64,000 bases of DNA from a bacterium (GCA_030647655.1 JAUSJH010000002.1:43711-107710), one strand, 5' to 3'. Shown: positions 92-17,133, counted from the first letter of the stretch. A program made the numbers and translations. The notes: generated by a model not told the origin, from the sequence alone.

Positions 92-2599
92 ATGGCAAAG
101 TCTAGTGACGGGGCACGCGGAAAAGATGACCCAATACCTGTTCCGAAGGCACGACCCGAAGGGGTCGTATCGCGTAGCATCTCGACCGAAATGCGCGAGT
201 CGTATCTCGACTATGCGATGTCGGTCATCACCGCCAGAGCACTTCCCGACGTGCGCGATGGGCTGAAGCCTGTGCACCGTCGTATTCTCTTTGCGATGCA
301 AGAGGCGGGCCTCTCCGTCTCCGCGAAGACGCGGAAATCGGCGACCGTCGTCGGAGATGTCTTGGGCAAATACCATCCGCATGGCGACGCATCGGTCTAC
401 GACGCGATGGTAAAAATGGCGCAAGATTTCACCATGCGTTATCCGCTCATCGTCGGGCAGGGCAACTTTGGCTCTATCGATGGCGATGGCGCCGCCGCGT
501 ATCGGTATACGGAAGCCAAGATGTCGCGTCTCGCTGGTGAGATGATGAAGGACATCGAAAAAGAGACCGTTGACTTCGTTCCGAATTACGACAACACCAA
601 ACAAGAGCCCGCTGTATTACCGTCCGCGACGCCTAATCTGCTCCTGAACGGCACTTTGGGCATTGCAGTCGGTATGGCAACGAATATCCCGCCCCACAAC
701 CTGCGCGAAGTGTGCGAAGCGGCGGTGCATCTTATCGAAAACAGTTCAGCGACGACCGAAGACCTTCTGCACTTCGTACAGGGTCCGGATTTTCCGACCG
801 GCTGTATCGCGTTCAACCAGAAGGACATTGCGCACGCGTACGCGACCGGCCGTGGCGGGGTCGTGGTGCGCGGAGACGCAGAAATAGTCGAAGGCAAGAA
901 GGGCGATTATCAAATAGTCATCACCTCGATACCGTTCCGTGTCAACAAATCCGATTTGCTGACCAAGATCGCCGACCTTGTGCATGAAAAGAAGCTCGAA
1001 GGAGTGCGCGATATCCGTGATGAGTCCACCAAAGACATCCGCGTCGTCGTCGAATTGAAGAACAATGCAAATGCCCAGACAGTATTAAACTATCTCTACA
1101 AACACACACAGCTCGAAGAGACCTTCCATTACAACGTCGTCGCACTCGTCGATGGCGTGCCGCAGACGCTTTCCCTGAAGGCACTCCTCGAATACTTCAT
1201 CGCGCATCGCAAGGAAGTAGTCACGCGCCGCACAAGGTACGACCTCAAAGTGGCGACTGCGCGCGAGCACATCTTGCTTGGTCTCAAAAAAGCGCTCGAC
1301 CACATCGACGAGATAATCGCCCTCATAAAGAAATCAAAGGATGTAGACGATGCGCGGGCGGGCCTCATGTCGAAGTTCAAGTTCTCCGTCTTGCAGGCCA
1401 ATGCCATTCTCGAGATGCGCCTCTCCAAGCTCGCCGGTCTCGAGCGCAAAAAGGTAGAAGACGAACTGAAAGAAATCCAAGCGCTCATCGAGGAATTGAC
1501 GGCGCTCTTGAAGAGCGAGAAGAAGCTCATGGGCCTTATCACCAAAGAGATACGCGAGGTTATCGAGAAATACGGCGATGACCGTCGCACCAAGATAGTG
1601 AAGCGCGGAGCGACGATACTCTCTGCTGAAGACCTTATCGCGGACGAGGATTCGGTCCTCGTCCTCACACAGGGCGGCTACATCAAGCGCACGAATCCTG
1701 CGGAATATCGCCGACAAAAGCGCGGCGGAGTGGGCGTCGTCGACCTCGATACCAAAGAAGAGGACTTCGTCACGCAATTTCTGACCGCCTCCGCGCACAG
1801 CGACCTCCTTTTCTTCTCTGACCGCGGCAAAGTGTATCAATTGAAAATGTACGACCTGCCGGAAGGCAAGCGCGCGACCAAAGGCAAATCCATCATGAAC
1901 TTCATTTCGCTCGAACAGGGTGAGCAGATAACCTCCATCCTAGCGATGCCGAAAGAAAAGAAAGCGGTCGAGGGCCTCTCGCTCATCATGGCGACGCGAA
2001 ATGGCACGGTAAAGCGCATCGCCGCCAAAAGTTTCTACGAAGTCCGCCGAAGTGGCCTTATCGCAATCGGTCTGGATAAGGGTGATGCGCTTATTTCCGC
2101 GCAATTTGTATATACCGGTGACGATGCGGTCCTAGTGACCTCGAAAGGACAGGCGATACGATTTGCCGCAAAGCAAGTACGCGAGATGGGGCGGCAGGCG
2201 GCGGGTGTGCGCGGCATGAAGCTCCGAAGCGGGGATTCGATAGTTGGCGCGGGTATCGTGCCCAAGGGCGCGAAAGACGCCCAACTCCTCGTTCTCTCCT
2301 CGACCGGCTATGGAAAAAAGACCAAACTGACCGAATACAAGACACAAGGCAGAGGCGGCTCGGGCATTAAGACAATGTCTATTACTCCGAAGACCAAACA
2401 GCTCGTGGGCGCGGCGGTCGTTCTCGCAAGGGGCGGGGAGCTTGTCGCGATGTCCAAGAAGAGCCAGACCATTCGCACGGGTCTTGATGAGATTTCCACG
2501 CTCTCGCGCGCGACCCAAGGCGTGCGCGTCATGAAAATGCGTGAAGGGGATTCGGTCGCGTCATTCGTGGTGTTCGAGGCACAAGTAGCTGGAGAGTAG
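92..2599 (+). CDS. gyrA: DNA gyrase subunit A
   Basis: 835 aa ORF. N-terminal region [28 protein letters not shown] with the active-site Tyr region YHPHGD, and the C-terminal beta-pinwheel repeats typical of GyrA. Confidence 0.95.
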
Positions 2600-2650
2600 T
2601 TTCCCCACGTATGCGGCACGCGGGCTCGAAGCCCTAACGTCCGCGGTATA

Positions 2651-3241
2651 ATGAACGCAATGCAACATGTGCAAACGCATGGTCCTTTGTCCGCACACGG
2701 GTTTGCGCATCCGCGGCGCAATGTCGCGGCACTCGGCGTCGAGCCGGGGATGTCGGTTGCTGATTTTGGTTCGGGGAGCGGCATTTATGTTCTCCATATC
2801 GCCGAAGCACTCGAAAATTTCGGGCATGTGTATGCGATAGACGTGCAACGCGATTTGCTTCAGCGTGTCAAGAACGAAGCGCACCGGCGCGGATTCAAAA
2901 ACGTCGAAGTTATCTGGACCGATCTTGAACACGAAGGCGCTTCAAAGATTGCCGATGGAAAGCTTGACCTCGTCCTCATTTCCAACCTTCTATTTCAGAT
3001 AGACAACAAGGCAGCGCTCTTCCATGAGGCGGCGCGGATACTGCGCCCTACGGGCAGGCTTGCTGTCATTGATTGGCGCGAGTCATATGGCGGCATGGGG
3101 CCACAGAAGGCGGATGTCGTCACGCAAGAGAAAGCACTCGCGCTCGCCCACGAACATGGATTTGAATTACAGCGTGAATTTCCCGCGGGCGCTCACCACT
3201 ACGGGCTTATTTTCCGATTAACAGTCCACCCCAAAACATGA
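2651..3241 (+). CDS. class I SAM-dependent methyltransferase
   Basis: Motif I VADFGSGSGIYVLHIA, an acidic post-I residue (AIDVQ), and a motif II-like LDLVLISN. Small 196 aa Rossmann-fold methyltransferase. Confidence 0.7.
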   Translation: MNAMQHVQTHGPLSAHGFAHPRRNVAALGVEPGMSVADFGSGSGIYVLHIAEALENFGHVYAIDVQRDLLQRVKNEAHRRGFKNVEVIWTDLEHEGASKIADGKLDLVLISNLLFQIDNKAALFHEAARILRPTGRLAVIDWRESYGGMGPQKADVVTQEKALALAHEHGFELQREFPAGAHHYGLIFRLTVHPKT

Positions 3242-4536
3242 GAAAACTTTCGATGTTCCAGATCATGCTTCTCGTCATCTTCGGCGGTCTTGCCGTATCT
3301 GGTGTCTTGATATTCGCACTTGCCATAGGCGGCGGCGACACGAACACGATCGGTGCCGTCAAGATTTGGGGCACGCTTGACCAAGGGGCGTTTTCCATCG
3401 TCATCCGACAGGCGACAGAACGCGATGGACAATTGAGCCAAGTCACCTACGAGCAAAAAGACCCGGCGACCTACGAGAGCGAGCTCACCAATGCGCTTGC
3501 AAGCGGCACGGGGCCAGACCTCTTCCTGATGCGGCAGGATTACGCACTTAAAGACGCCGGCAAGGTTGCCCTCATTCCGTTCTCGGCGCTTTCGCAGGCG
3601 CAATTCGAGAACGCTTTCATCGAAGCGGCAAGTCCATTCCTTACGCAAAAAGGTGTTACTGCAGTCCCCCTCTTAGCCGATCCTCTCATTTTGTATTGGA
3701 ACAAAGATATGTTGGCTGCAGGTGGATTCGCACAGCCACCGAAATATTGGGACGAGCTTTTCAACATGGCGCAGAAGATAACGACGAAAGACGACACAGG
3801 CTCTATCCGCAAATCCACGGTTGCATTCGGTGAATATCAGAACGTAACGAATGCCAAAGATATCGTCGCGACCATGATACTCCAATCCGGTAGCACCATC
3901 ACAGCGTACGACAACGGAGGGCACCTCACTCCCGCGCTCGCGCCGCGCGCTGGGGGCGCCACACAAGCAAGCGTGTCGGCCCTGCGTTTCTACACGGAAT
4001 TCGCGGACCCTTCCAAGAACAGTTACTCATGGAACCGCTCGCTTCCGGAAGCGCAAAAAGCATTCGCTTCGGGCGATGTAGCGCTCTACATCGGGTATGC
4101 AAGCGAGGCACCACTTATCGCGCGCACGAATCCAAACCTTAATTTTACCGCCTCGCCTATGCCGCAAATACGCACCGGCGGTAAGACACTCACCGCCGCG
4201 CGTGTCTATGCACTCGGAGCTTCCCGCGCAGGCAAGAATCCGACCGCTGCCATTACCGCGGCGTTCCTTCTGGCATCGTCCGAGAATGCGAAAGCGCTCT
4301 CGAGTGCGCTCGGGATACCGAGTGCACGCCGCGACGTCGTGGGGCAATCTGCGCAAGGCACTGACGACCTCTTCAACAAACAAGCCATTCTTGCCAACTC
4401 ATGGCTTGATCCTGATCCTGAAAAGACAGCTACGCTCTTTCGCGCTATGATCGAAGGTACGACAAGCGGAACCTTGCAGGTAAGCGAAGCAATCCAGCGC
4501 GCGGACCAGCAATTGGCACAAATTCTTGGCCTATGA
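3238..4536 (+). CDS. extracellular solute-binding protein (SBP family 1-like), membrane-anchored
   Basis: N-terminal transmembrane/signal anchor (MFQIMLLVIFGGLAVSGVLIF). About 430 aa periplasmic-type binding-protein composition. Start overlaps the upstream stop (ATGA). No adjacent permease genes. Confidence 0.55.
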   Translation: MRKLSMFQIMLLVIFGGLAVSGVLIFALAIGGGDTNTIGAVKIWGTLDQGAFSIVIRQATERDGQLSQVTYEQKDPATYESELTNALASGTGPDLFLMRQDYALKDAGKVALIPFSALSQAQFENAFIEAASPFLTQKGVTAVPLLADPLILYWNKDMLAAGGFAQPPKYWDELFNMAQKITTKDDTGSIRKSTVAFGEYQNVTNAKDIVATMILQSGSTITAYDNGGHLTPALAPRAGGATQASVSALRFYTEFADPSKNSYSWNRSLPEAQKAFASGDVALYIGYASEAPLIARTNPNLNFTASPMPQIRTGGKTLTAARVYALGASRAGKNPTAAITAAFLLASSENAKALSSALGIPSARRDVVGQSAQGTDDLFNKQAILANSWLDPDPEKTATLFRAMIEGTTSGTLQVSEAIQRADQQLAQILGL

Positions 4537-4991
4537 GCAAAACCGACAAACCGACCCCATCTGCGTCGTTGCAGGGCCCCAGCAGCTTTCTCGCCGTACA
4601 TGTACGTACGACTCGTTCGCTGCTCTCCCCGCGCCTCGCATCTCGGGCCGTCTTGTCACTTTTGTCTGTTATTGCATTTTATATACTCACCACCGCTGTT
4701 GCCCACGCACAAAGCACCGGTCTGGAAAATCCACTCAACAGTAATTTCAGCACCATCCCCGCCTTTATCGCGGGAGCTTTGAAGGTCCTCGTCATCGTGG
4801 CGCTACCTGTCATAGCGCTCTTCATCGTCTATTCCGGATTTTTGTTTATCTTTGCCCGCGGCGATCCTACAAAACTCACGAAAGCAAAAGAAAATTTCGT
4901 CTACGTTATTATTGGGGCGCTCCTCATTCTCGGGGCATGGGTCATCGCGACTCTCATCGGAGGGACCGTAACTCAATTAGTTGGGAATTAA
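4533..4991 (+). CDS. TrbC/VirB2-like pilin family small membrane protein (paralog A)
   Basis: Signal/TM segment AVLSLLSVIAFYILTTAVAHA-QS, then two hydrophobic helices separated by a short K/E loop (ARGDPTKLTKAKENF). This architecture is typical of the TrbC/VirB2 pilin-like proteins abundant in CPR genomes. The N-terminal extension may be over-called. Confidence 0.5.
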   Translation: MSKTDKPTPSASLQGPSSFLAVHVRTTRSLLSPRLASRAVLSLLSVIAFYILTTAVAHAQSTGLENPLNSNFSTIPAFIAGALKVLVIVALPVIALFIVYSGFLFIFARGDPTKLTKAKENFVYVIIGALLILGAWVIATLIGGTVTQLVGN

Positions 4992-4992
4992 T

Positions 4993-5379
4993 ATGCGACA
5001 TGCTCGGACCATATTACCTATACTATTGCTCGCGGCGCCAGCGGTCGCCAGCGCCGCCGCACCACGCACATTTCAGGAGCTTGCGAGCCTCATCGTCCTC
5101 ATACTCGACAATGCTACGGCAGTCCTCATTGTCGCCGGTATCGTTATCTACTTCTGGGGCATCTCGACCAACATCCTAAAACTCAGCGACGAAGGCGGAG
5201 CAAAACTCAAACTATATCTTTTCTGGGGGATCATCGTGCTTTTTGTGATGGTATCCATTTGGGGAATTCTGCGGCTTCTACAAAGTACGATTTTTGGTAG
5301 TAGTGCATATAGTCAATCGTCGGAATTGACCGAGAGCAGGTCACCGGATCTTTTCCAGCCTCCGGTCTTTAGCGAATAA
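4993..5379 (+). CDS. TrbC/VirB2-like pilin family small membrane protein (paralog B)
   Basis: ATG lies 1 nt after paralog A's stop. Signal peptide ILPILLLAAPAVASA, two TM helices, and the motif FVMVSIWGILRLLQST shared with paralog D. Confidence 0.55.
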   Translation: MRHARTILPILLLAAPAVASAAAPRTFQELASLIVLILDNATAVLIVAGIVIYFWGISTNILKLSDEGGAKLKLYLFWGIIVLFVMVSIWGILRLLQSTIFGSSAYSQSSELTESRSPDLFQPPVFSE

Positions 5380-5386
5380 CATTACT

Positions 5387-5830
5387 ATGCAAAGCCCACG
5401 ACTTCTTCCGCGCGCGCTCATGCTGGAAACGGCGGGACTTGCGTTTCTCACGACAGTGGCTCCGATGATGGCCTCGGCACAGGCGCTCACAAAAGCTGTC
5501 GGAACCTTCAACGTCTTTGTCGGGCTAATGCTCACTGCCTCCATCTTGGTATTTGGCACCGGATTCGTAGTCTGGTCCGTGCGTCTCGGGACGTGGCCGA
5601 CCTACCGCACGGAAGGCGTAAGGATAATGGAGTGGGGGGTCGTGATACTGTTTGTGCTTGTAGTAATCCTCGCTATCGTGCAGTTCTTCCAGAGTCATGC
5701 GCGGGCGGCCGCATATATCGTATCAACCATTGTTCTCATACTCGTCGCGGCCGCTATACTGGTGATGGCGGCCAAGGGCGAGAAAAAGAAGGAAGAGAGA
5801 AGGCCCCCGAGTCAGCAGGGGTTCCCATAG
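5387..5830 (+). CDS. hypothetical polytopic membrane protein
   Basis: Signal-like N-terminus (LAFLTTVAPMMASAQA), four predicted hydrophobic helices, and a lysine/glutamate-rich C-terminal tail. Confidence 0.45.
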   Translation: MQSPRLLPRALMLETAGLAFLTTVAPMMASAQALTKAVGTFNVFVGLMLTASILVFGTGFVVWSVRLGTWPTYRTEGVRIMEWGVVILFVLVVILAIVQFFQSHARAAAYIVSTIVLILVAAAILVMAAKGEKKKEERRPPSQQGFP

Positions 5831-6072
5831 GCCCGTCCGTCTGCGAGCTTGGCACACACGTACTCGTGCGTGCACCACCACTCTCATATCGGCTTCGCCA
5901 ACATTCGAGCCCTTCGGGCGCCTCGCGGCGGGGTCGGTTATCCACATCAAGTTTATGTTGTCTATTGTGTTTTCTGCTCCTATCTATACCATTGAAGTAC
6001 TCCCGCCTGCGCCGAAGGCTTCGGCGGGCAGGTAGAAATAGCGTCCACATTTATATATAGAATAAACAGAAT

Positions 6073-6435
6073 ATGCGGAAAATCATTGTTTCGTCCGGTT
6101 TTGGCGCAGCTCTCATCGCGCTCCCCGCACTTGCTTCTGCGGCGACACTGCTCGATACACTCGCTCTTTTCAATACCTTCCTGAATGCCCTCATTGGGCT
6201 TTTCATCACACTTGCCATCGTGGTCTTCTTCTGGGGCCTCATTGAGTACCTCGTGAACGCGGGGGAAGAAAAGTCCAAAGGCCTGCAAACTATGTTCTAC
6301 GGCGTTATTTGCATCTTCGTCATGGTTTCCATCTGGGGTATCATCCGGCTTCTGCAGACTACCTTCAAAGTCACTTCGACCGATCCTGTAATCCCGAAAG
6401 GTATACAGATAAATACCGGAGGCACCTATTACTAA
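6073..6435 (+). CDS. TrbC/VirB2-like pilin family small membrane protein (paralog D)
   Basis: Signal peptide ALIALPALASAAT, two TM helices with loop GEEKSKG, and the motif FVMVSIWGIIRLLQTT nearly identical to paralog B. Confidence 0.55.
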   Translation: MRKIIVSSGFGAALIALPALASAATLLDTLALFNTFLNALIGLFITLAIVVFFWGLIEYLVNAGEEKSKGLQTMFYGVICIFVMVSIWGIIRLLQTTFKVTSTDPVIPKGIQINTGGTYY

Positions 6436-6484
6436 TGGGTCTCATGGCCGCGTCTTAAAAGGCTGAACGAAACGGCCGCGCTCT

Positions 6485-6793
6485 ATGGATGCTCTCGGAA
6501 ACGTAATGGATAAGTTCTGGGCCTATATCATCTCTCCGGCCATTCTTGTCATTTTCGCCTGCGGGTTCTTTCTGTTCGTTTTTGGACTCGTTGAGTTTCT
6601 CTGGAAGTTGAACGAAGGGGGAGATAATAAAGATGGGAAACAACACATGGTGTGGGGCATCGTCGGAATGCTCATCATGGTATCAGTGTGGGGTATTCTC
6701 GACCTACTCGACAACACCTTCGGCCTCGACTATAAGAATCCCGATGTCGGCCGCGCGCAGAACGTGCAAATCCCCGTCAATTTCGGGAATTGA
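6485..6793 (+). CDS. TrbC/VirB2-like pilin family small membrane protein (paralog E)
   Basis: Two TM helices with loop NEGGDNKDGK and the motif LIMVSVWGILDLL related to paralogs B and D. No obvious cleavable signal. An alternative start is possible at the internal Met, 6506. Confidence 0.5.
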   Translation: MDALGNVMDKFWAYIISPAILVIFACGFFLFVFGLVEFLWKLNEGGDNKDGKQHMVWGIVGMLIMVSVWGILDLLDNTFGLDYKNPDVGRAQNVQIPVNFGN

Positions 6794-6818
6794 GAAATAT
6801 TGTTAGGATACGCGAGTA

Positions 6819-6900
6819 GGGCAGGTGGCGTAATTGGTAGCCGCGCTAGGCTTAGGACCTAGTCCCGCAAGGGGTGCGAGTTCGAGTCTCGCCCTGCCCA
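6819..6900 (+). tRNA. tRNA-Leu (anticodon TAG)
   Basis: Acceptor stem GGGCAGG/CCTGCCC. Anticodon stem CTAGG/CCTAG with loop CTTAGGA. Long variable arm and T-loop GTTCGAGTC. CCA is not encoded. Confidence 0.8.
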
Positions 6901-6960
6901 CTGACGATTTCTAGGAGCGACGATGTTTCCAAATGGTGAAAGTTATGTACAATCGTTGAA

Positions 6961-7033
6961 CCGCCTATAGCTCAGCTGGTAGAGCAACTGCCTCTTAAGC
7001 AGTGGGTCCCTGGTTCGAATCCAGGTGGGCGGA
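6961..7033 (+). tRNA. tRNA-Lys (anticodon CTT)
   Basis: D-arm GCTCAGCTGGTAGAGC. Anticodon stem ACTGC/GCAGT with loop CTCTTAA. T-arm CCTGGTTCGAATCCAGG. Confidence 0.8.
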
Positions 7034-7100
7034 CTAACAAGGAATCGGTAGTGGGCAAAAGCGAACGAATCAATGAGTGATTACCCTCCCGTTATTTTTT

Positions 7101-7880
7101 CTAGAGCTTCTTCGAAAAATAGTGCGATTCTCGAACTTTCCAATTCCTTTTAAGAGGGTCTAGTACTTTTTCCCCGTATTTCTCTATTACTTCATCTGCC
7201 GTTTTGTTCTTAACCTCGTCATCTTCATTAGCCATGCCTTTAACAAGTTCCTCAAGGTGTGGATCCCTCTTTTTTAATTCGTATAATGTCCAAGTGGAAT
7301 CAAGGCCAGCTTTTCTTTCTATTTTTGCCAACGATGAATCGTTTGCTCTCGCACACTCCCAATAGACTACCGTAGCCTCAAAATAGTCGCGAAGTAAATC
7401 AGGAATGCTCATCGTCTTGAGTTTGTTTTCCATTTTTATAGTGAAGAGCAAATGTTGAACAGCGAGGATGAACATTGGGACAGAGAGCACCGTAATGAGC
7501 ACGTCCAACGACAATGTAGTTACTAAGTATGGTTCAGCTTGGATTAGCGAGAGTCCTAGATTCTCCACCCACAAATAAATCAGAAAGACTGTCGCGAAAA
7601 AGGCTACAAGCGCATATAATGCGATGAAGGTGTACGCAAGTTTGCCTCGCCATCGTAGGAAAGAGAGCAAAGCCACGAGACCAATTATTTCGACAGCCAG
7701 TGAAGTCAGGATGTCTATCGCTCCGTCATGATTGTGAAAATTGCCATATTGAGTCCGAATGGTGGTCGTTAGCCAGAGTCCAATCACGATCCAGAGGAGC
7801 CGATTTCGACTCTTCAAAAGTAGCAGAATCTCGTTCCACAGAAACGCATGGTAATTCTTCAGTTTTTCTTTTTCAGCCAT
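7101..7880 (-). CDS. hypothetical membrane protein (low-GC)
   Basis: 259 aa ORF with about 5 hydrophobic helices and a charged C-terminal domain. The local GC is markedly lower than the flanks. It lies between tRNA-Lys and tRNA-Leu. Confidence 0.5.
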   Translation of the reverse strand: MAEKEKLKNYHAFLWNEILLLLKSRNRLLWIVIGLWLTTTIRTQYGNFHNHDGAIDILTSLAVEIIGLVALLSFLRWRGKLAYTFIALYALVAFFATVFLIYLWVENLGLSLIQAEPYLVTTLSLDVLITVLSVPMFILAVQHLLFTIKMENKLKTMSIPDLLRDYFEATVVYWECARANDSSLAKIERKAGLDSTWTLYELKKRDPHLEELVKGMANEDDEVKNKTADEVIEKYGEKVLDPLKRNWKVRESHYFSKKL

Positions 7881-7911
7881 ACTGAGATTTTAACAACAAT
7901 ATATTGTTTTG

Positions 7912-7995
7912 TGCCGGGGGTGGGAGTCGAACCCACAAACCTGTTTAAGGTCAAAGATTTTAAGTCTTCTGCGTAAACCATTCCGCCACCCCGGC
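7912..7995 (-). tRNA. tRNA-Leu (anticodon TAA)
   Basis: The reverse complement reads GCCGGGGTGGCGGAATGG...CTTAAAA (anticodon TAA), a long variable arm, T-arm GGTTCGACTCC, and acceptor CCCCGGC. Confidence 0.8.
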
Positions 7996-8001
7996 AGATC
8001 C

Positions 8002-8586
8002 CTATGTCGCAGGATTTCTGCGCACTATGAGTATACACACGGTTGAGGCATAGGCGAGAAATAAGTACACAGGGTAGAGGATATTCTGAAGCTCTAGGTT
8101 GTTTGAGGAAAGTAGCCCGAATAGAGCACCAGCTGAGAGCAAGACATAGGTCATCATAGTTTCGCTGTGTGGTAATCGGTACGACTTGATGGATGTCGGC
8201 AAAAGGAATAGGATATCGGCGATAATCGAAATGATAATTGCTGAAAGGGGTTCTTTGGTCGCAATCCAACTGATAATTGCTACTACGCCAAGCACGAAAC
8301 ACACTTTGTCGAGCGTATTGAATTTCGCATACCCATACCGGATGCCTAACACAGCAATAGTGGCGGTGCCGATCGTAGAGGCAATAGGCACAACTAGTGA
8401 GAGATTGGTGCCTTTCGCGAACTGAGCAACTATGGTTATTGTCGTCAGTAACGACCAGCCGACCCAAGAAACAATATTAGGATGAGTAGTGCGTGACAAA
8501 ACATCCCGTATATAGGGAATAGTCCCGGCAACCAGAAGAAGTCCAGATAAAATCGCGCATCCTATACGGATCGCATCTATGCTCAT
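8002..8586 (-). CDS. hypothetical 6-TM membrane protein
   Basis: Hydrophobic throughout (MSIDAIRIGCAILSGLLLVAG...). Start chosen at the Met immediately next to tRNA-Cys; the upstream extension in the ORF track would overlap the tRNA. Confidence 0.45.
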   Translation of the reverse strand: MSIDAIRIGCAILSGLLLVAGTIPYIRDVLSRTTHPNIVSWVGWSLLTTITIVAQFAKGTNLSLVVPIASTIGTATIAVLGIRYGYAKFNTLDKVCFVLGVVAIISWIATKEPLSAIIISIIADILFLLPTSIKSYRLPHSETMMTYVLLSAGALFGLLSSNNLELQNILYPVYLFLAYASTVCILIVRRNPAT

Positions 8587-8587
8587 G

Positions 8588-8659
8588 AGGCCACGGCGGG
8601 ACTCGAACCCGCGCATAAGAGTTTTGCAGACTCCCGTGTTACCCCTTCACCACGTGGCC
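8588..8659 (-). tRNA. tRNA-Cys (anticodon GCA)
   Basis: The reverse complement reads GGCCACGTGGTGAAGGGGTAACAC-GGAGT-CTGCAAA-ACTCT...GCGGGTTCGAGTCCCGC-CGTGGCC. Confidence 0.8.
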
Positions 8660-15457: not shown

Positions 15458-16507
15458 CTAGTTATCTCGGTTTGCTGTTTGGTTAATTCTGAAAGAGCTT
15501 AAGATTGATTGAACGTCTGCGTCGTACCGCATAGAACCCTTTGGCACATCAGCTGTTAGTCTCCAAAAGAAATAAGCGGAATCTGATGTCTGCCTGCTCC
15601 ACGCACGGTCGTAAATGTAATAAACATACCTCTTCGGCCCATCTAGTTCCGTATAGACAACACGCGCCTCATTGACACTTGAAGGACCTGTCATTTCTAC
15701 CGTTTCGACCGTGAGATTGTTCTCAGTGCCGTACGTTGCCGCTTCATCACTCGCCATTTTTAGGAAGGCATCTTGGTTGAATAGTGCAGTAGGTGCAATG
15801 CTCCATGGTTGCCATCGCTCAATCTGAACCGTTACGTTTGAATCATCTCTTGGATTCAACGTCACGTTGCCGTATTGAAGGGGCGGCTGGTCGTACATCC
15901 AATCTTTCGGAAACTCGAAAGTGTATTTATCCAGTGGCTCGTAGTATTCAATGAGGGTGCCCTTCTCAGTTAACGTCACTTCGTTTCTGGTGTGATTCCA
16001 AAAATGGACTGGTGGAAGGAGAAAACCAGCAAGCGTCAAAATGAATATTGCCACCAAAGCCCACATAACCCATTTGGACCGCGGCAGTTTTTCGTTGTTC
16101 TTTTGCCAGTCATAGGTCTTGAAGACCACTAGAGCGATTTGCAGTGCAACGACAGCCAGAATCAGTCCCATGGCAGGTGGAGTAACGTTACCTGTATAAG
16201 AAACCTTCATCATCCATGTTGAGATGAGTCCATATGCAGCGACGATTAAGAGTAAGACTGCGATAATACGAGAATTGAAAAAATACAGAATCACCGCGAA
16301 GATGAGAAGTAATAGACCGTCAAAATTCGGCCATGTGAGTATGGGAACAGAGAGCGCATTACTGCTTACACTTATCCACCAAAAAAATAAAAGTCCTGCT
16401 GCTTGAATCCCAGTCACAACGCATAGGCCGAGTAACGCAGACCTCTTCGCCTTAACAGTCTCTTCGGCAGACTTGTAAGGTTCTCCAAGCAGAAATATTG
16501 AAGCCAT
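15458..16507 (-). CDS. hypothetical membrane protein with large extracytoplasmic domain
   Basis: 349 aa with 4-5 N-terminal TM helices, then a Trp/Tyr-rich soluble domain. Lower GC than the flanks. Confidence 0.5.
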   Translation of the reverse strand: MASIFLLGEPYKSAEETVKAKRSALLGLCVVTGIQAAGLLFFWWISVSSNALSVPILTWPNFDGLLLLIFAVILYFFNSRIIAVLLLIVAAYGLISTWMMKVSYTGNVTPPAMGLILAVVALQIALVVFKTYDWQKNNEKLPRSKWVMWALVAIFILTLAGFLLPPVHFWNHTRNEVTLTEKGTLIEYYEPLDKYTFEFPKDWMYDQPPLQYGNVTLNPRDDSNVTVQIERWQPWSIAPTALFNQDAFLKMASDEAATYGTENNLTVETVEMTGPSSVNEARVVYTELDGPKRYVYYIYDRAWSRQTSDSAYFFWRLTADVPKGSMRYDADVQSILSSFRINQTANRDN

Positions 16508-16692: not shown

Positions 16693-17133
16693 ATGACCCG
16701 CAGGCAGGTGGTTCGATTGGCCGTACTCTTCCTCCTAGTCTTTATAGTGGCGCCCTCGCTTGTGCTTGCGCAGGGCAATATTTTGCCCGGCCAAATCGTG
16801 CCCCAACAGTGCAACGACCCCGGTGGCTGTAAATCAATATGCGACTTGGCACAGGTCGCGCAGAATGTTCTCAATACCGGCATCTACATCGCTGTTTTTC
16901 TCTCCGCAGTCCTTTTCGCGTGGGCAGGATTCTTATATCTCACGAATTCCGCGAATTCAAGCGGCATATCGAAGGCCAAGGAAGTATTCCTCAACGTGGG
17001 GATTGGACTCGTCATCATCCTTGCCGGCTGGCTTCTCGTAGACACGCTCATCAAGGTCCTTGCGGGAGGGAAGTTCGGCACATGGAATAAAGTGTGCGAG
17101 CTTCTTCTGCATCACGTATCGGCTTTCGTATAA
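16693..17133 (+). CDS. TrbC/VirB2-like pilin family small membrane protein (paralog F, Cys-containing)
   Basis: Signal peptide RLAVLFLLVFIVAPSLVLAQG, a Cys-rich loop (QQCNDPGGCKSICD), then two TM helices with loop NSANSSGISKAKE. Start moved to the internal Met to avoid tRNA-Tyr. Confidence 0.5.
   Translation: MTRRQVVRLAVLFLLVFIVAPSLVLAQGNILPGQIVPQQCNDPGGCKSICDLAQVAQNVLNTGIYIAVFLSAVLFAWAGFLYLTNSANSSGISKAKEVFLNVGIGLVIILAGWLLVDTLIKVLAGGKFGTWNKVCELLLHHVSAFV

What the first reader, a model, noticed from the sequence alone, without database searches (positions are those of the whole stretch)
4533..6793. Tandem array of five paralogous TrbC/VirB2-like pilin genes
Five consecutive same-strand genes encode 100-150 aa proteins. 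Each has a signal peptide or anchor plus two hydrophobic helices separated by a short charged loop. A sixth copy sits at 16693-17133. Three of them (4993, 6073 and 6485) share a near-identical C-terminal helix, FVMVSIWGI(L/I)RLLQ(S/T)T. This is a locally amplified pilin-like family, possibly subunits of a surface filament or conjugation-like pilus. No ATPase, secretin or VirB4-like gene lies in the window, so the assembly machinery is not linked here.
Basis: partly seen in the sequence, partly recalled or inferred. Interest (0 to 1): 0.6.

Follow-up and report, generated by a model that had tools for sequence, protein, structure and literature searches.

The report
Conserved VirB2-like pilin gene array
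Six small membrane-hairpin genes in this Kaiserbacteria (candidate phyla radiation) chromosome belong to the VirB2/TrbC "T4SS pilin" family; such arrays are already described in these bacteria, and this one is an old, conserved operon, not a recent amplification.

Summary
Five same-strand genes (4533-6793) and a sixth (16693-17133) encode homologous 102-152 aa proteins with two hydrophobic helices. The first gene passes the Pfam thresholds for T4SS_pilin (PF18895) and TrbC/VirB2 (PF04956), and NCBI already names it "pilin". The other five connect to PF18895 through sub-threshold hits, hits among their orthologues, profile comparisons and intermediate sequences.

The window is housekeeping chromosome of a Candidatus Kaiserbacteria MAG. 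It holds no VirB4, VirB6, VirD4 or type IV pilus gene. A published table marks most Kaiserbacteria assemblies as VirB4-positive.

Tandem VirB2-like arrays in Patescibacteria are published (441 arrays; an essential six-pilin array in Southlakia epibionticum). This is a new member of a known kind.

New here:
- The order solute-binding protein, p1, p2, p3, p4, p5 recurs in 55 of 80 species-level genomes, with one-to-one orthologues.
- dN/dS is 0.1-0.26, so there is no diversifying selection.
- Deeper Paceibacteria keep the same gyrA–methyltransferase–binding-protein–array block, but two or three pilin modules are fused into one protein. This suggests the paralogues assemble together.

Pilus formation and dependence on a type IV secretion system are inferred, not shown.

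The parts
3238..4536 (+). Membrane-anchored MalE-like solute-binding protein (432 aa). Its stop overlaps the p1 start by 4 bp. A possible partner of the array.
   Evidence: Pfam SBP_bac_8 6e-22 and SBP_bac_1 3e-21. Distant sugar-binding relatives in the PDB. It lies directly upstream of the array in 77 Kaiserbacteria loci, with a median gap of -4 nt, and also in distant Paceibacteria loci L091, L093, L095 and L096. The linkage cannot be separated from general synteny: the methyltransferase gene overlaps the binding-protein gene in the same way.
4533..4991 (+). p1, a canonical T4SS_pilin/TrbC-type pilin precursor. It has a 59-aa leader ending AHA|QS and a 93-aa mature two-helix hairpin.
   Evidence: PF18895 37.4 bits and PF04956 30.6 bits, both above their cut-offs. 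All 120 listed homologues carry PF18895 and most also carry PF04956. The exact sequence is MDO8513974.1, which NCBI names 'pilin'. AlphaFold2 helices at 75-107 and 112-150 with pLDDT 88-96. The mature part is highly conserved and the leader is variable.
4993..5379 (+). p2, a p4-type pilin-like paralogue with a signal peptide (ASAAA|P), a hairpin and a variable C-terminal tail.
   Evidence: BLASTP to p4 E 3e-19. hhalign to p4 99.8%. 18 of 78 orthologues hit PF18895, best E 3.8e-6.
5387..5830 (+). p3, the most divergent paralogue: signal peptide, hairpin with a conserved RLGTWPTYRTE loop, then a third helix and a lysine/glutamate-rich tail.
   Evidence: hhalign to p4 98.4%. 14 of 60 orthologues hit PF18895. 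In 12 of the 15 loci without a BLAST-detectable p3, a shorter two- or three-helix ORF sits in the same slot.
5987..6001 (+). Conserved element TACCATTGAAGTACT upstream of p4. It resembles a -10 box plus the start of a transcript. A GC-rich hairpin follows at 6002-6032.
   Evidence: The motif lies within about 160 nt upstream of p4 in 37 of 79 loci, against a background of 0.002 per 190 nt in the same loci. Its function is inferred.
6073..6435 (+). p4, the most conserved paralogue, with a signal peptide (ASA|A), a hairpin and a conserved tail VTSTDPVIPKGIQINT.
   Evidence: PF18895 23.3 bits; some orthologues carry a precomputed PF18895 hit. Median identity to the window over 79 genomes is 68%, above IF-2 at 63%. 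AlphaFold2 hairpin with pLDDT 83-92.
6485..6793 (+). p5, the last member of the array. It has no signal peptide and begins directly with the hairpin.
   Evidence: PF18895 23.5 bits. hhalign to p4 99.4%. The same leaderless type, about 80 aa long, ends the arrays of the distant loci L091 and L093.
16693..17133 (+). p6, a p1-type paralogue with four conserved cysteines: three in the N-terminal extracytoplasmic segment and one near the C-terminus.
   Evidence: PF18895 23.6 bits. hhalign to p1 97.4%. It is syntenic after clpB in L018, L029, L031, L048 and L051. In L091, L093 and L095 the p6-like gene is the first gene of the array, directly after the binding-protein gene. Cysteine pattern.

Best explanation
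Shown. The six genes encode members of the VirB2/TrbC superfamily, Pfam T4SS_pilin PF18895. Each is a small protein whose core is a hairpin of two hydrophobic helices joined by a short charged loop. They form an ancient, non-redundant set, not a recent amplification. The block gyrA, methyltransferase, solute-binding protein, p1, p2, p3, p4, p5 is inherited vertically across Kaiserbacteria under purifying selection. In deeper Paceibacteria the same block carries p6-type, p1-type, p4-type and leaderless p5-type modules, and some of these are fused into one polypeptide.

Inferred mechanism.
1. p1-p4 and p6 are exported by the Sec pathway and cut by signal peptidase I at Ala-X-Ala-type sites. This leaves hairpins of about 90-120 aa in the membrane with both termini outside and the loop inside. 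p5 inserts without a leader.
2. The different hairpins assemble side by side into one hetero-oligomeric tube or filament. p1, p4, or both would be the bulk subunits. p3, with its extra helix and cytoplasmic tail, would stay in the membrane as a base. p6, with its cysteine-rich head, and the tails of p2, p4 and p5 would be exposed on the surface.
3. Assembly is driven by the Patescibacterial monoderm-type type IV secretion system (VirB4, VirB6, PrgI/VirB3) encoded elsewhere in the genome. The structure serves contact or exchange with a host cell.

The adjacent membrane-anchored solute-binding protein may be a partner.
For: Family:
- p1 is above the gathering thresholds of PF18895 and PF04956.
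- All listed p1 orthologues carry PF18895, and NCBI names p1 'pilin'.
- p4, p5 and p6 are just below threshold.
- PF18895 is the top family among p2 and p3 orthologues.
- The p4 profile finds 7,411 representative proteins. All ten multi-module hits I scanned are strong PF18895 proteins, 51-86 bits.
- Modules in L091, L093 and L095 hit both p1/p6-type and p4-type HMMs, which bridges the two subfamilies.

Topology:
- Hydropathy and AlphaFold2 hairpins agree.
- The p6 cysteines sit in both terminal segments, which fits both termini being on the same, outer side.

Ancient and non-redundant:
- 55 of 80 genomes have the identical order, and 12 of the 15 loci with no BLAST-detectable p3 keep a short divergent ORF in the p3 slot.
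- dN/dS is 0.12, 0.14, 0.26, 0.115 and 0.106 for p1-p5, against 0.087 for the binding protein, at dS 0.56-0.92.
- p4 dN is lower than IF-2 dN.
- Third codon positions in the shared p2/p4 helix are randomised.

Co-assembly:
- 52 of the top 150 representatives have two or three modules.
- These fused proteins sit in the same locus.
- L095 fuses a p1-type module to a p4/p5-type module.

Link to a secretion system:
- VirB2-like pilins and arrays are reported across Patescibacteria together with VirB4, and the array of S. epibionticum is essential.
- In the excerpts of Table S1 that I saw, 27 of 34 Kaiserbacteria assemblies are VirB4-positive. Four of the five I could match to array-bearing loci are among them.
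Against: - No type IV secretion gene lies in the 64-kb window or within 10 kb of the array in any of the more than 85 related loci examined. The functional link to VirB4 therefore rests on the literature only.
- Fold searches of the models against the PDB returned only generic helical hairpins. There was no VirB2 or TraA hit, and no Foldseek match with E below 1. A profile sequence search of the PDB found nothing.
- p2 and p3 from the window have no Pfam hit of their own.
- Proteins with four to six helices from covalently fused hairpins, and p3 with a third helix, are not known to be extracted into conjugative pili.
- The loops of p4 and p5 have no net positive charge, so the positive-inside rule does not fix their topology.
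- No filament has been seen.
Confidence: 0.6

Rival explanations
1. A membrane-resident hairpin ring or channel that is never extruded and works independently of the type IV secretion system. The paralogous hairpins would pack laterally in the membrane, as the hairpins of ATP-synthase c-rings do. Together with the anchored solute-binding protein they would form an uptake or envelope device.
For: - The array is never next to type IV secretion genes, but it is always directly after a solute-binding protein gene, down to relatives with only 55% GyrA identity whose downstream synteny is broken.
- Fused proteins with two or three hairpins are common. From my own knowledge, such fusions are typical of membrane rings such as duplicated or triplicated c subunits and are unknown for pilins.
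- p3 has an extra helix and a cytoplasmic basic tail.
- ATP-synthase subunit c was among the top, non-significant, Foldseek hits.
Against: - p1 clearly matches the TrbC/VirB2 and T4SS_pilin models.
- There is no ATP-synt_C or transporter HMM hit, and no conserved acidic residue lies in the middle of either membrane helix.
- The binding-protein linkage cannot be told apart from general synteny, because gyrA and the methyltransferase gene are equally conserved neighbours.
- In S. epibionticum the equivalent array lies inside the essential type IV secretion cluster.
Confidence: 0.2
2. A lineage-specific amplification kept for surface variation. The paralogues would be interchangeable major pilins that diversify to evade or adapt to different hosts. 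This is what the first reader implied and what has been suggested for Patescibacterial arrays by analogy with Bartonella and Anaplasma.
For: - Paralogues are only 16-41% identical, in the range reported for published arrays, which average 25%.
- A few genomes have extra copies: p4 duplicates in L021, L038, L050 and L087, and a p1 duplicate in L066.
- The C-terminal tails of p2 and p5 are variable.
Against: - Orthologues are one-to-one and in a fixed order in 55 of 80 species-level genomes.
- dN/dS is 0.1-0.26, similar to housekeeping neighbours.
- p4 is more conserved than IF-2.
- Each position has its own conserved signature: the p3 loop, the p4 tail, and the absence of a leader in p5. The leaderless p5 type at the end of the array persists in distant lineages.
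- Third codon positions are randomised, so there has been no recent duplication or gene conversion.
Confidence: 0.07
3. Not pilins at all: type IV pilus (PilA-type) pilins, holins, or unrelated small hydrophobic proteins that resemble one another through composition.
For: - p3 has a weak, sub-threshold match to a holin family (PF07332, 20.6 bits against a cut-off of 28.4) and a charged C-terminal tail.
- The helical hairpin fold is generic.
Against: - No class III prepilin leader (G|FTLIE-type) occurs in any of the six proteins or in any window ORF.
- The HMMs of the six groups hit no other membrane protein among 480 window ORFs.
- PF18895 is the only family that recurs among the orthologues.
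- The region is housekeeping chromosome with no phage or lysis genes.
Confidence: 0.03

Closest known systems
VirB2-like pilin arrays of Patescibacteria (Quinonero-Coronel et al. 2025, PMC12102498; the essential pilin series in the type IV secretion cluster of Southlakia epibionticum ML1, Wang et al. 2023, PMC10633639, described as six VirB2-like pilins in PMC12857230; the 'Sec secreted array' of TM7x)
   Same: The same Pfam families (PF18895, PF04956). Tandem genes for small, sequence-divergent pilin-like proteins with conserved structure in a monoderm CPR bacterium. Identity between paralogues of 16-41%, against a published mean of 25% and maximum of 54%. No relaxase or coupling protein nearby.
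   Different: This array is in Kaiserbacteria (class Paceibacteria), whereas the published arrays are said to be most abundant in Microgenomatia and Saccharimonadia. It is not inside or beside a virB4 cluster. It lies in a housekeeping block directly after a solute-binding protein gene. Its membership and order are fixed across the family and it is under purifying selection. This argues against the host-range or antigenic-variation idea offered in that paper. The paper does not mention the binding-protein linkage or multi-module fused pilins.
TrbC (RP4), VirB2 (Agrobacterium Ti) and TraA (F) conjugative pilins of Gram-negative type IV secretion systems
   Same: A long leader peptide (59 aa in p1) cut at an Ala-X-Ala site. 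A mature hairpin of about 90 aa with two hydrophobic helices and a short loop that is basic in p1, p3 and p6. p1 is above the PF04956 threshold.
   Different: No detectable sequence match to solved pilins. The host is a monoderm. There is no adjacent virB operon. Six distinct paralogues replace one major pilin. Several carry C-terminal tails of 20-30 aa. Cyclisation by a TraF-type peptidase could not be tested. In p6, conserved cysteines in both terminal segments could instead join the termini by disulfide bonds; this is an inference.
Mbov_0395 / MMCAP2_0565 pilin-like conjugal transfer protein of Mycoplasma integrative conjugative elements (NCBIfam NF045849)
   Same: A small pilin-like hairpin protein in a monoderm, MPF-FATA-type conjugation system. 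p1, p6 and p4 give weak matches to it (E 4.7e-5, 2.4e-4 and 4.6e-3).
   Different: All scores (11-23 bits) are far below the family cut-off of 40 bits. The genes are chromosomal, not on a mobile element, and form a multi-gene array.
Multiple virB2 paralogues of Bartonella and Anaplasma type IV secretion loci
   Same: Several divergent VirB2-family genes in tandem.
   Different: Those are thought to give antigenic variation, as cited in PMC12102498. Here the orthologues are conserved one-to-one and under purifying selection.

Membership tests
T4SS_pilin (Pfam PF18895) / TrbC-VirB2 (PF04956) superfamily | Match to the family HMM at or above the curated gathering score | tested here: met
   p1 scores 37.4 against 26.6 (PF18895) and 30.6 against 27.9 (PF04956). 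p4, p5 and p6 score 23.3-23.6 bits, just below. The window's p2 and p3 have no hit, but 18 of 78 and 14 of 60 of their orthologues hit PF18895 at E up to 0.01. Relatives retrieved with the p4 profile score 51-86 bits.
T4SS_pilin (Pfam PF18895) / TrbC-VirB2 (PF04956) superfamily | A cleavable, often long, Sec signal peptide followed by two hydrophobic helices joined by a short loop, with a mature size of about 70-120 aa | tested here: met
   Hydropathy and -3/-1 rule sites and AlphaFold2 hairpins. Exceptions: p5 has no leader and p3 has a third helix. No dedicated signal-peptide predictor was available.
T4SS_pilin (Pfam PF18895) / TrbC-VirB2 (PF04956) superfamily | Structural similarity to solved VirB2, TraA or TrbC pilins | tested here: inconclusive
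Conjugative or T4SS pilus system (functional membership) | Genomic linkage to VirB4, VirB6, VirB3/PrgI or other mating-pair-formation genes | tested here: not met
   None in the 64-kb window and none within 10 kb in L002-L096. Presence elsewhere in Kaiserbacteria genomes is known only from the published Table S1: 27 of 34 assemblies seen are VirB4-positive.
Conjugative or T4SS pilus system (functional membership) | Polymerisation into an extracellular filament; maturation by cyclisation or acetylation | not testable with these tools
   This needs cryo-electron tomography, proteomics or mass spectrometry. No multimer prediction tool was available.
Patescibacterial VirB2 array (as defined in PMC12102498) | Two or more VirB2-like genes in tandem, or separated by one non-pilin gene, in a Patescibacteria genome | tested here: met
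   Five adjacent homologous genes plus a sixth 10 kb away. Taxon names of the homologues are Candidatus Kaiserbacteria or Parcubacteria.
Type IV pilus (PilA/ComG-type) pilins | A class III prepilin leader with a G|F/M-T-L-I/L-E cleavage motif and an N-terminal hydrophobic helix | tested here: not met
   A regular-expression search finds no such motif in the six proteins or in any window ORF. The only related hit is ComGF at E 0.21 for p4.
Holins | A holin family HMM match and a neighbouring endolysin or phage context | tested here: not met
   p3 scores 20.6 bits on PF07332, below the cut-off of 28.4, and only 1 of 60 orthologues matches. The neighbours are housekeeping genes.

The most novel reading that the evidence does not exclude
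The solute-binding protein together with the p6-, p1-, p4- and p5-type hairpin modules is a self-contained envelope machine, conserved across Paceibacteria. It would be a hetero-oligomeric hairpin tube or ring derived from VirB2 pilins that no longer depends on a type IV secretion system. It might capture or conduct host-derived sugars or other molecules. The natural two- and three-module fusions would show that different modules are neighbours in the assembly.
Probability: 0.15. Interest if true: 0.8.

Novelty: new member of a known kind. Interest (0 to 1): 0.4.

Why it matters
Patescibacteria are a large share of bacterial diversity and depend on host cells. In the one species where a genome-wide knockout screen has been done, the type IV secretion system and its pilin array are essential, yet their function is called "completely unknown" (PMC11665869). 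This locus adds three constraints.
- The paralogues are individually conserved and ordered, so they are probably distinct parts of one structure and not interchangeable variants.
- Fused forms with two or three modules exist at the same locus. This gives a natural hint about which modules sit next to each other.
- In Paceibacteria the array travels with a membrane-anchored solute-binding protein and not with virB4.

Each point can be tested with multimer modelling, co-evolution analysis, or cryo-electron tomography of the few cultured Paceibacteria. As a window finding it is ordinary: the family is in Pfam, p1 is already annotated as "pilin", and arrays of this kind are published.

Tried and rejected
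- A profile of p1 orthologues against PDB sequences gave no hit even at E 10.
- dN/dS against the species-level relatives is saturated (dS above 1, or undefined). I replaced it with the closer contig L088.
- The promoter and terminator consensus scan of 2400-7200 was barely above the shuffled expectation. Rfam found only the eight tRNAs. The 242-nt spacer between p3 and p4 folds no better than shuffles, z = -0.29.
- My first degenerate pattern for the element upstream of p4 was mis-specified and found nothing. A regular expression then found it.
- I tried to reach the source contig (197,796 bp, NCBI) to look for VirB4. Exact-protein look-up returned only a 5-kb copy, and P0400 is not on record. 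I therefore could not inspect type IV secretion genes in this genome or in the complete relative CP066682.1.
- The 349-aa multi-pass membrane protein next to p6 (15458-16507, - strand) was considered as a VirB6 candidate. It has no Pfam hit and is absent from the same position in relatives.
- Recent gene conversion was considered as the cause of the shared p2/p4 helix. It was rejected because only 6 of 16 third codon positions agree.
- I considered treating the 4-bp overlap between the binding-protein gene and p1 as proof of functional coupling. I rejected this because the methyltransferase gene overlaps the binding-protein gene in the same way.

Full report
**1. What is in the sequence**

- p1 4533-4991 (152 aa)
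- p2 4993-5379 (128 aa)
- p3 5387-5830 (147 aa)
- p4 6073-6435 (120 aa)
- p5 6485-6793 (102 aa)

A sixth copy, p6, lies at 16693-17133 (146 aa).

All-against-all BLASTP gives two groups. Within {p2, p3, p4, p5}, p2, p3 and p4 match each other, and p5 matches p2 and p4, at E 3e-7 to 3e-19 with 28-41% identity; p3-p5 is weak (E 0.003). The pair {p1, p6} has E 3e-8. Cross links are weak: p1-p5 1e-4 and p4-p6 1e-3.

HMMs built from the orthologues of each gene were run against all 480 window ORFs of at least 45 aa. They hit only these six genes and no other membrane protein. The similarity is therefore not a composition artefact, and the window holds no further copy.

Hydropathy shows a leader followed by two hydrophobic helices with a short charged loop. 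AlphaFold2 agrees: p1 has helices at 75-107 and 112-150 with pLDDT 88-96, and p4 has a hairpin with pLDDT 83-92.

- p5 has no signal peptide.
- p3 carries a third helix and a lysine/glutamate-rich tail.
- The "near-identical" helix holds for p2 and p4 (14 of 16 residues) but only loosely for p5 (9-10 of 16).

**2. Family**

p1 passes the curated thresholds of Pfam T4SS_pilin (PF18895, 37.4 bits against 26.6) and TrbC/VirB2 (PF04956, 30.6 against 27.9). All 120 listed p1 homologues carry PF18895 and most also carry PF04956. The identical protein is MDO8513974.1, which NCBI annotates as "pilin". p2-p6 are annotated "hypothetical protein".

p4, p5 and p6 score 23.3-23.6 bits on PF18895. The window's p2 and p3 have no hit of their own. 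Among their orthologues, PF18895 is by far the commonest family: 18 of 78 for p2 and 14 of 60 for p3.

hhalign between orthologue alignments gives 89-99.8% probability within {p2-p5}, 97.4% for p1-p6 and 86% for p4-p6.

A profile of p4 orthologues, searched against 1.84 billion representative proteins, finds 7,411 relatives at E up to 1e-3. All ten multi-module hits I scanned are strong PF18895 proteins at 51-86 bits. Individual modules in distant loci hit both the p1/p6-type and the p4-type HMMs. Together these results tie all six genes to one superfamily.

No type IV pilus prepilin leader occurs anywhere in the window.

**3. Organism and surroundings**

Homologues are named Candidatus Kaiserbacteria, Parcubacteria or Paceibacterota.

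The window is housekeeping chromosome. It carries:
- gyrA, a methyltransferase and a solute-binding protein, followed by the array;
- then tRNAs, rbfA, infB, a NifS-like gene, a protease and clpB;
- then p6, miaA, parB, relA, topA, dprA, serS and others.

No VirB4, VirB6, VirD4, PilB or secretin gene is present. The ORFs without a Pfam hit are too small or have the wrong topology to be VirB4 or VirB6.

**4. Comparative result**

A scan of one genome per species found 126 genomes with a p4 relative, and 80 loci were kept.

- The order binding protein, p1, p2, p3, p4, p5 is identical in 55 of the 80.
- 13 loci have the order binding protein-p1-p2-p4-p5, with no BLAST-detectable p3. In all, 15 loci with p2 and p4 lack a detectable p3, and 12 of these have a short divergent two- or three-helix ORF in the p3 slot.
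- The remainder are contig ends or carry an extra p4 or p1 copy.

Median identity to the window across these genomes is 68% for p4, 63% for IF-2, 60% for p1, 55% for the binding protein, 53% for p5, 51% for p2 and 47% for p3. In each paralogue the mature hairpin is conserved and the leader is not. Each has its own signature: the C-terminus of p1, the RLGTWPTYRTE loop of p3 and the VTSTDPVIPKGIQINT tail of p4.

Against the closest contig (L088, dS 0.56-0.92), dN/dS values are:

| Gene | dN/dS |
|---|---|
| p1 | 0.12 |
| p2 | 0.14 |
| p3 | 0.26 |
| p4 | 0.115 |
| p5 | 0.106 |
| binding protein | 0.087 |

In the helix shared by p2 and p4, only 6 of 16 third codon positions agree.

The array is therefore an old set of one-to-one orthologues under purifying selection. 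It is not a local amplification and it is not diversifying.

**5. Beyond Kaiserbacteria**

About a third of the best hits to the p4 profile (52 of 150) are proteins of 190-400 aa with two or three pilin modules. Only the first module has a signal peptide, and the modules are joined by linkers rich in Gly, Ser, Pro and Thr.

Their genes sit in the same block in more distant Paceibacteria, where GyrA is 55-67% identical to the window's:
- L091 and L093: gyrA, methyltransferase, binding protein, a p6-type gene, a p1-type gene, a three-module p4-type gene, one or two p4-type genes (L093 also has interspersed non-pilin ORFs, including a Y1 transposase), and a final leaderless p5-type gene.
- L095 and L096: binding protein, a p6-type gene, one protein that fuses a p1-type module to a p4/p5-type module, and a p4-type gene (upstream gyrA and the methyltransferase are visible only in L095). 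Here the downstream synteny is different.

Three inferences follow:
- p6, which is an outlier in the window, belongs ancestrally to the array.
- The gene order by module type is conserved.
- By the Rosetta-stone argument, the fusions suggest that the different modules work side by side.

The 2025 survey of Patescibacterial type IV secretion systems mentions neither fused pilins nor a solute-binding protein neighbour.

**6. What is already known**

Quinonero-Coronel et al. 2025 (PMC12102498) searched 3,035 Patescibacteria genomes with PF04956, PF18895 and CONJScan profiles. They found:
- VirB2-like pilins in 1,948 assemblies that also have VirB4, and near virB4 in 1,135 of them;
- 441 arrays of 2-11 pilin genes, with mean identity 25%.

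Wang et al. 2023 (PMC10633639) showed by Tn-seq that the type IV secretion cluster of Southlakia epibionticum, including its series of predicted pilins, is essential. A 2025 review describes these as six VirB2-like pilins and calls them the only pilins in a monoderm type IV secretion system.

In the excerpts of Table S1 of the 2025 paper that I saw, 27 of 34 Kaiserbacteria assemblies are marked VirB4-positive. Four of the five that I could match to array-bearing loci are among them: L020, L022, L045 and L057 are positive and L011 is not.

The kind of feature is therefore published. This is a further member, in a class where arrays were said to be less abundant.

**7. Mechanism**

Shown: family membership, hairpin topology at the level of prediction, conservation, order and fusions.

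Inferred:
- Sec export and signal peptidase I cleavage at Ala-X-Ala-type sites (AHA|QS in p1, ASA|A in p4).
- A topology with both termini outside. This is supported indirectly by the four conserved cysteines of p6, three near the N-terminus and one near the C-terminus. The same pattern occurs in the distant L095 homologue.
- Lateral co-assembly of the different hairpins into one tube or filament.
- Assembly driven by the type IV secretion system encoded elsewhere in the genome.

The main rival keeps the family assignment but drops the pilus and the secretion system. It proposes a membrane-resident hairpin ring that works with the binding protein. I cannot exclude it. No secretion gene is ever linked to the array, fused multi-hairpin proteins are unknown among pilins, and p3 looks membrane-retained.

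The binding-protein linkage itself cannot be separated from general synteny. gyrA and the methyltransferase gene are equally constant neighbours, and the methyltransferase gene overlaps the binding-protein gene by 4 bp, just as the binding-protein gene overlaps p1.

**8. Verdict**

"Locally amplified" and diversifying selection are not.
- Novelty: a new member of a known kind.
- Interest is moderate (0.4). It rests mainly on the conserved stoichiometric-looking gene set and the fused-module relatives, which make the architecture of the Patescibacterial "pilus" testable.

Noticed in passing
L091:10001-11089, L093:10001-11005, L095:10001-10852 (also P0246-P0257, P0262, P0264, P0268, P0282, P0295, P0324): Single proteins of 190-400 aa contain two or three tandem T4SS_pilin hairpin modules (PF18895, 51-86 bits). 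Only the first module has a signal peptide. They lie at the same gyrA–methyltransferase–binding-protein locus in other Paceibacteria. L095 fuses a p1-type module to a p4/p5-type module. The 2025 survey paper does not mention them.
   Followed up: partly
window 5987-6001 (and the 60 nt upstream of p4 in L008-L057): A conserved element, TA[C/G][C/G]AT followed by 4-6 nt and then GTACTTA, lies 25-45 nt upstream of the p4 start. It is present in 37 of 79 loci against a background of 0.002 per 190 nt. It is probably a dedicated promoter or 5'-UTR element for p4 and p5. The same regular expression gives only two loose matches elsewhere in the window, which argues against a general promoter consensus.
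   Followed up: partly
window 6002-6032: A GC-rich hairpin (CCCGCCTGCGCCGAAGGCTTCGGCGGGCAGG) sits between that element and p4. A near-identical hairpin is at the same place in L013 but not in most relatives, so it looks like a small insertion.
   Followed up: no
window 16693-17133 (p6) and its homologues in L018, L029, L031, L048, L051 and L095:9570-9962: The p6-type pilins keep four cysteines: IVPxxC…GGCxSxC near the N-terminus and WNKxC near the C-terminus. Disulfides between the two extracytoplasmic ends could mimic the head-to-tail cyclisation of TrbC and VirB2. This is pure inference.
   Followed up: partly
window 6819-8659: The stretch between p5 and rbfA is a variable spot. In the window it holds tRNA-Leu, tRNA-Lys, a 259-aa and a 204-aa membrane protein without any Pfam match, tRNA-Leu and tRNA-Cys. 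In L002 it holds an F420-ligase-like gene and a LAGLIDADG endonuclease. In L005 and L006 it holds a secreted protein rich in Tyr and Asn, and a methyltransferase.
   Followed up: no
L002:8607-8870: An 87-aa acidic, non-membrane ORF is inserted between p1 and p2 in one lineage (also in L003 and L004). It is absent from the window.
   Followed up: no
L021, L038, L050, L087 (extra p4-type gene); L066 (extra p1-type gene): A few genomes carry an extra copy of a single array member, so limited copy-number change does occur on top of the conserved five-gene core.
   Followed up: no
window 15458-16507 (- strand): A 349-aa multi-pass membrane protein without a Pfam match lies between clpB and tRNA-Tyr/p6. 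It is not found at this position in relatives that have both clpB and p6.
   Followed up: partly
window 2651-4536: The methyltransferase, binding-protein and p1 genes overlap one another by 4 bp (ATGA) at both junctions. None of the array genes has a recognisable Shine-Dalgarno sequence.
   Followed up: partly
window 4533-4991, 6073-6435, 16693-17133: p1, p6 and p4 give weak, sub-threshold matches (11-23 bits against a cut-off of 40) to NCBIfam NF045849, the pilin-like conjugal transfer protein of Mycoplasma integrative conjugative elements. This hints that VirB2-like hairpins are not wholly absent from monoderm (MPF-FATA) systems.
   Followed up: no
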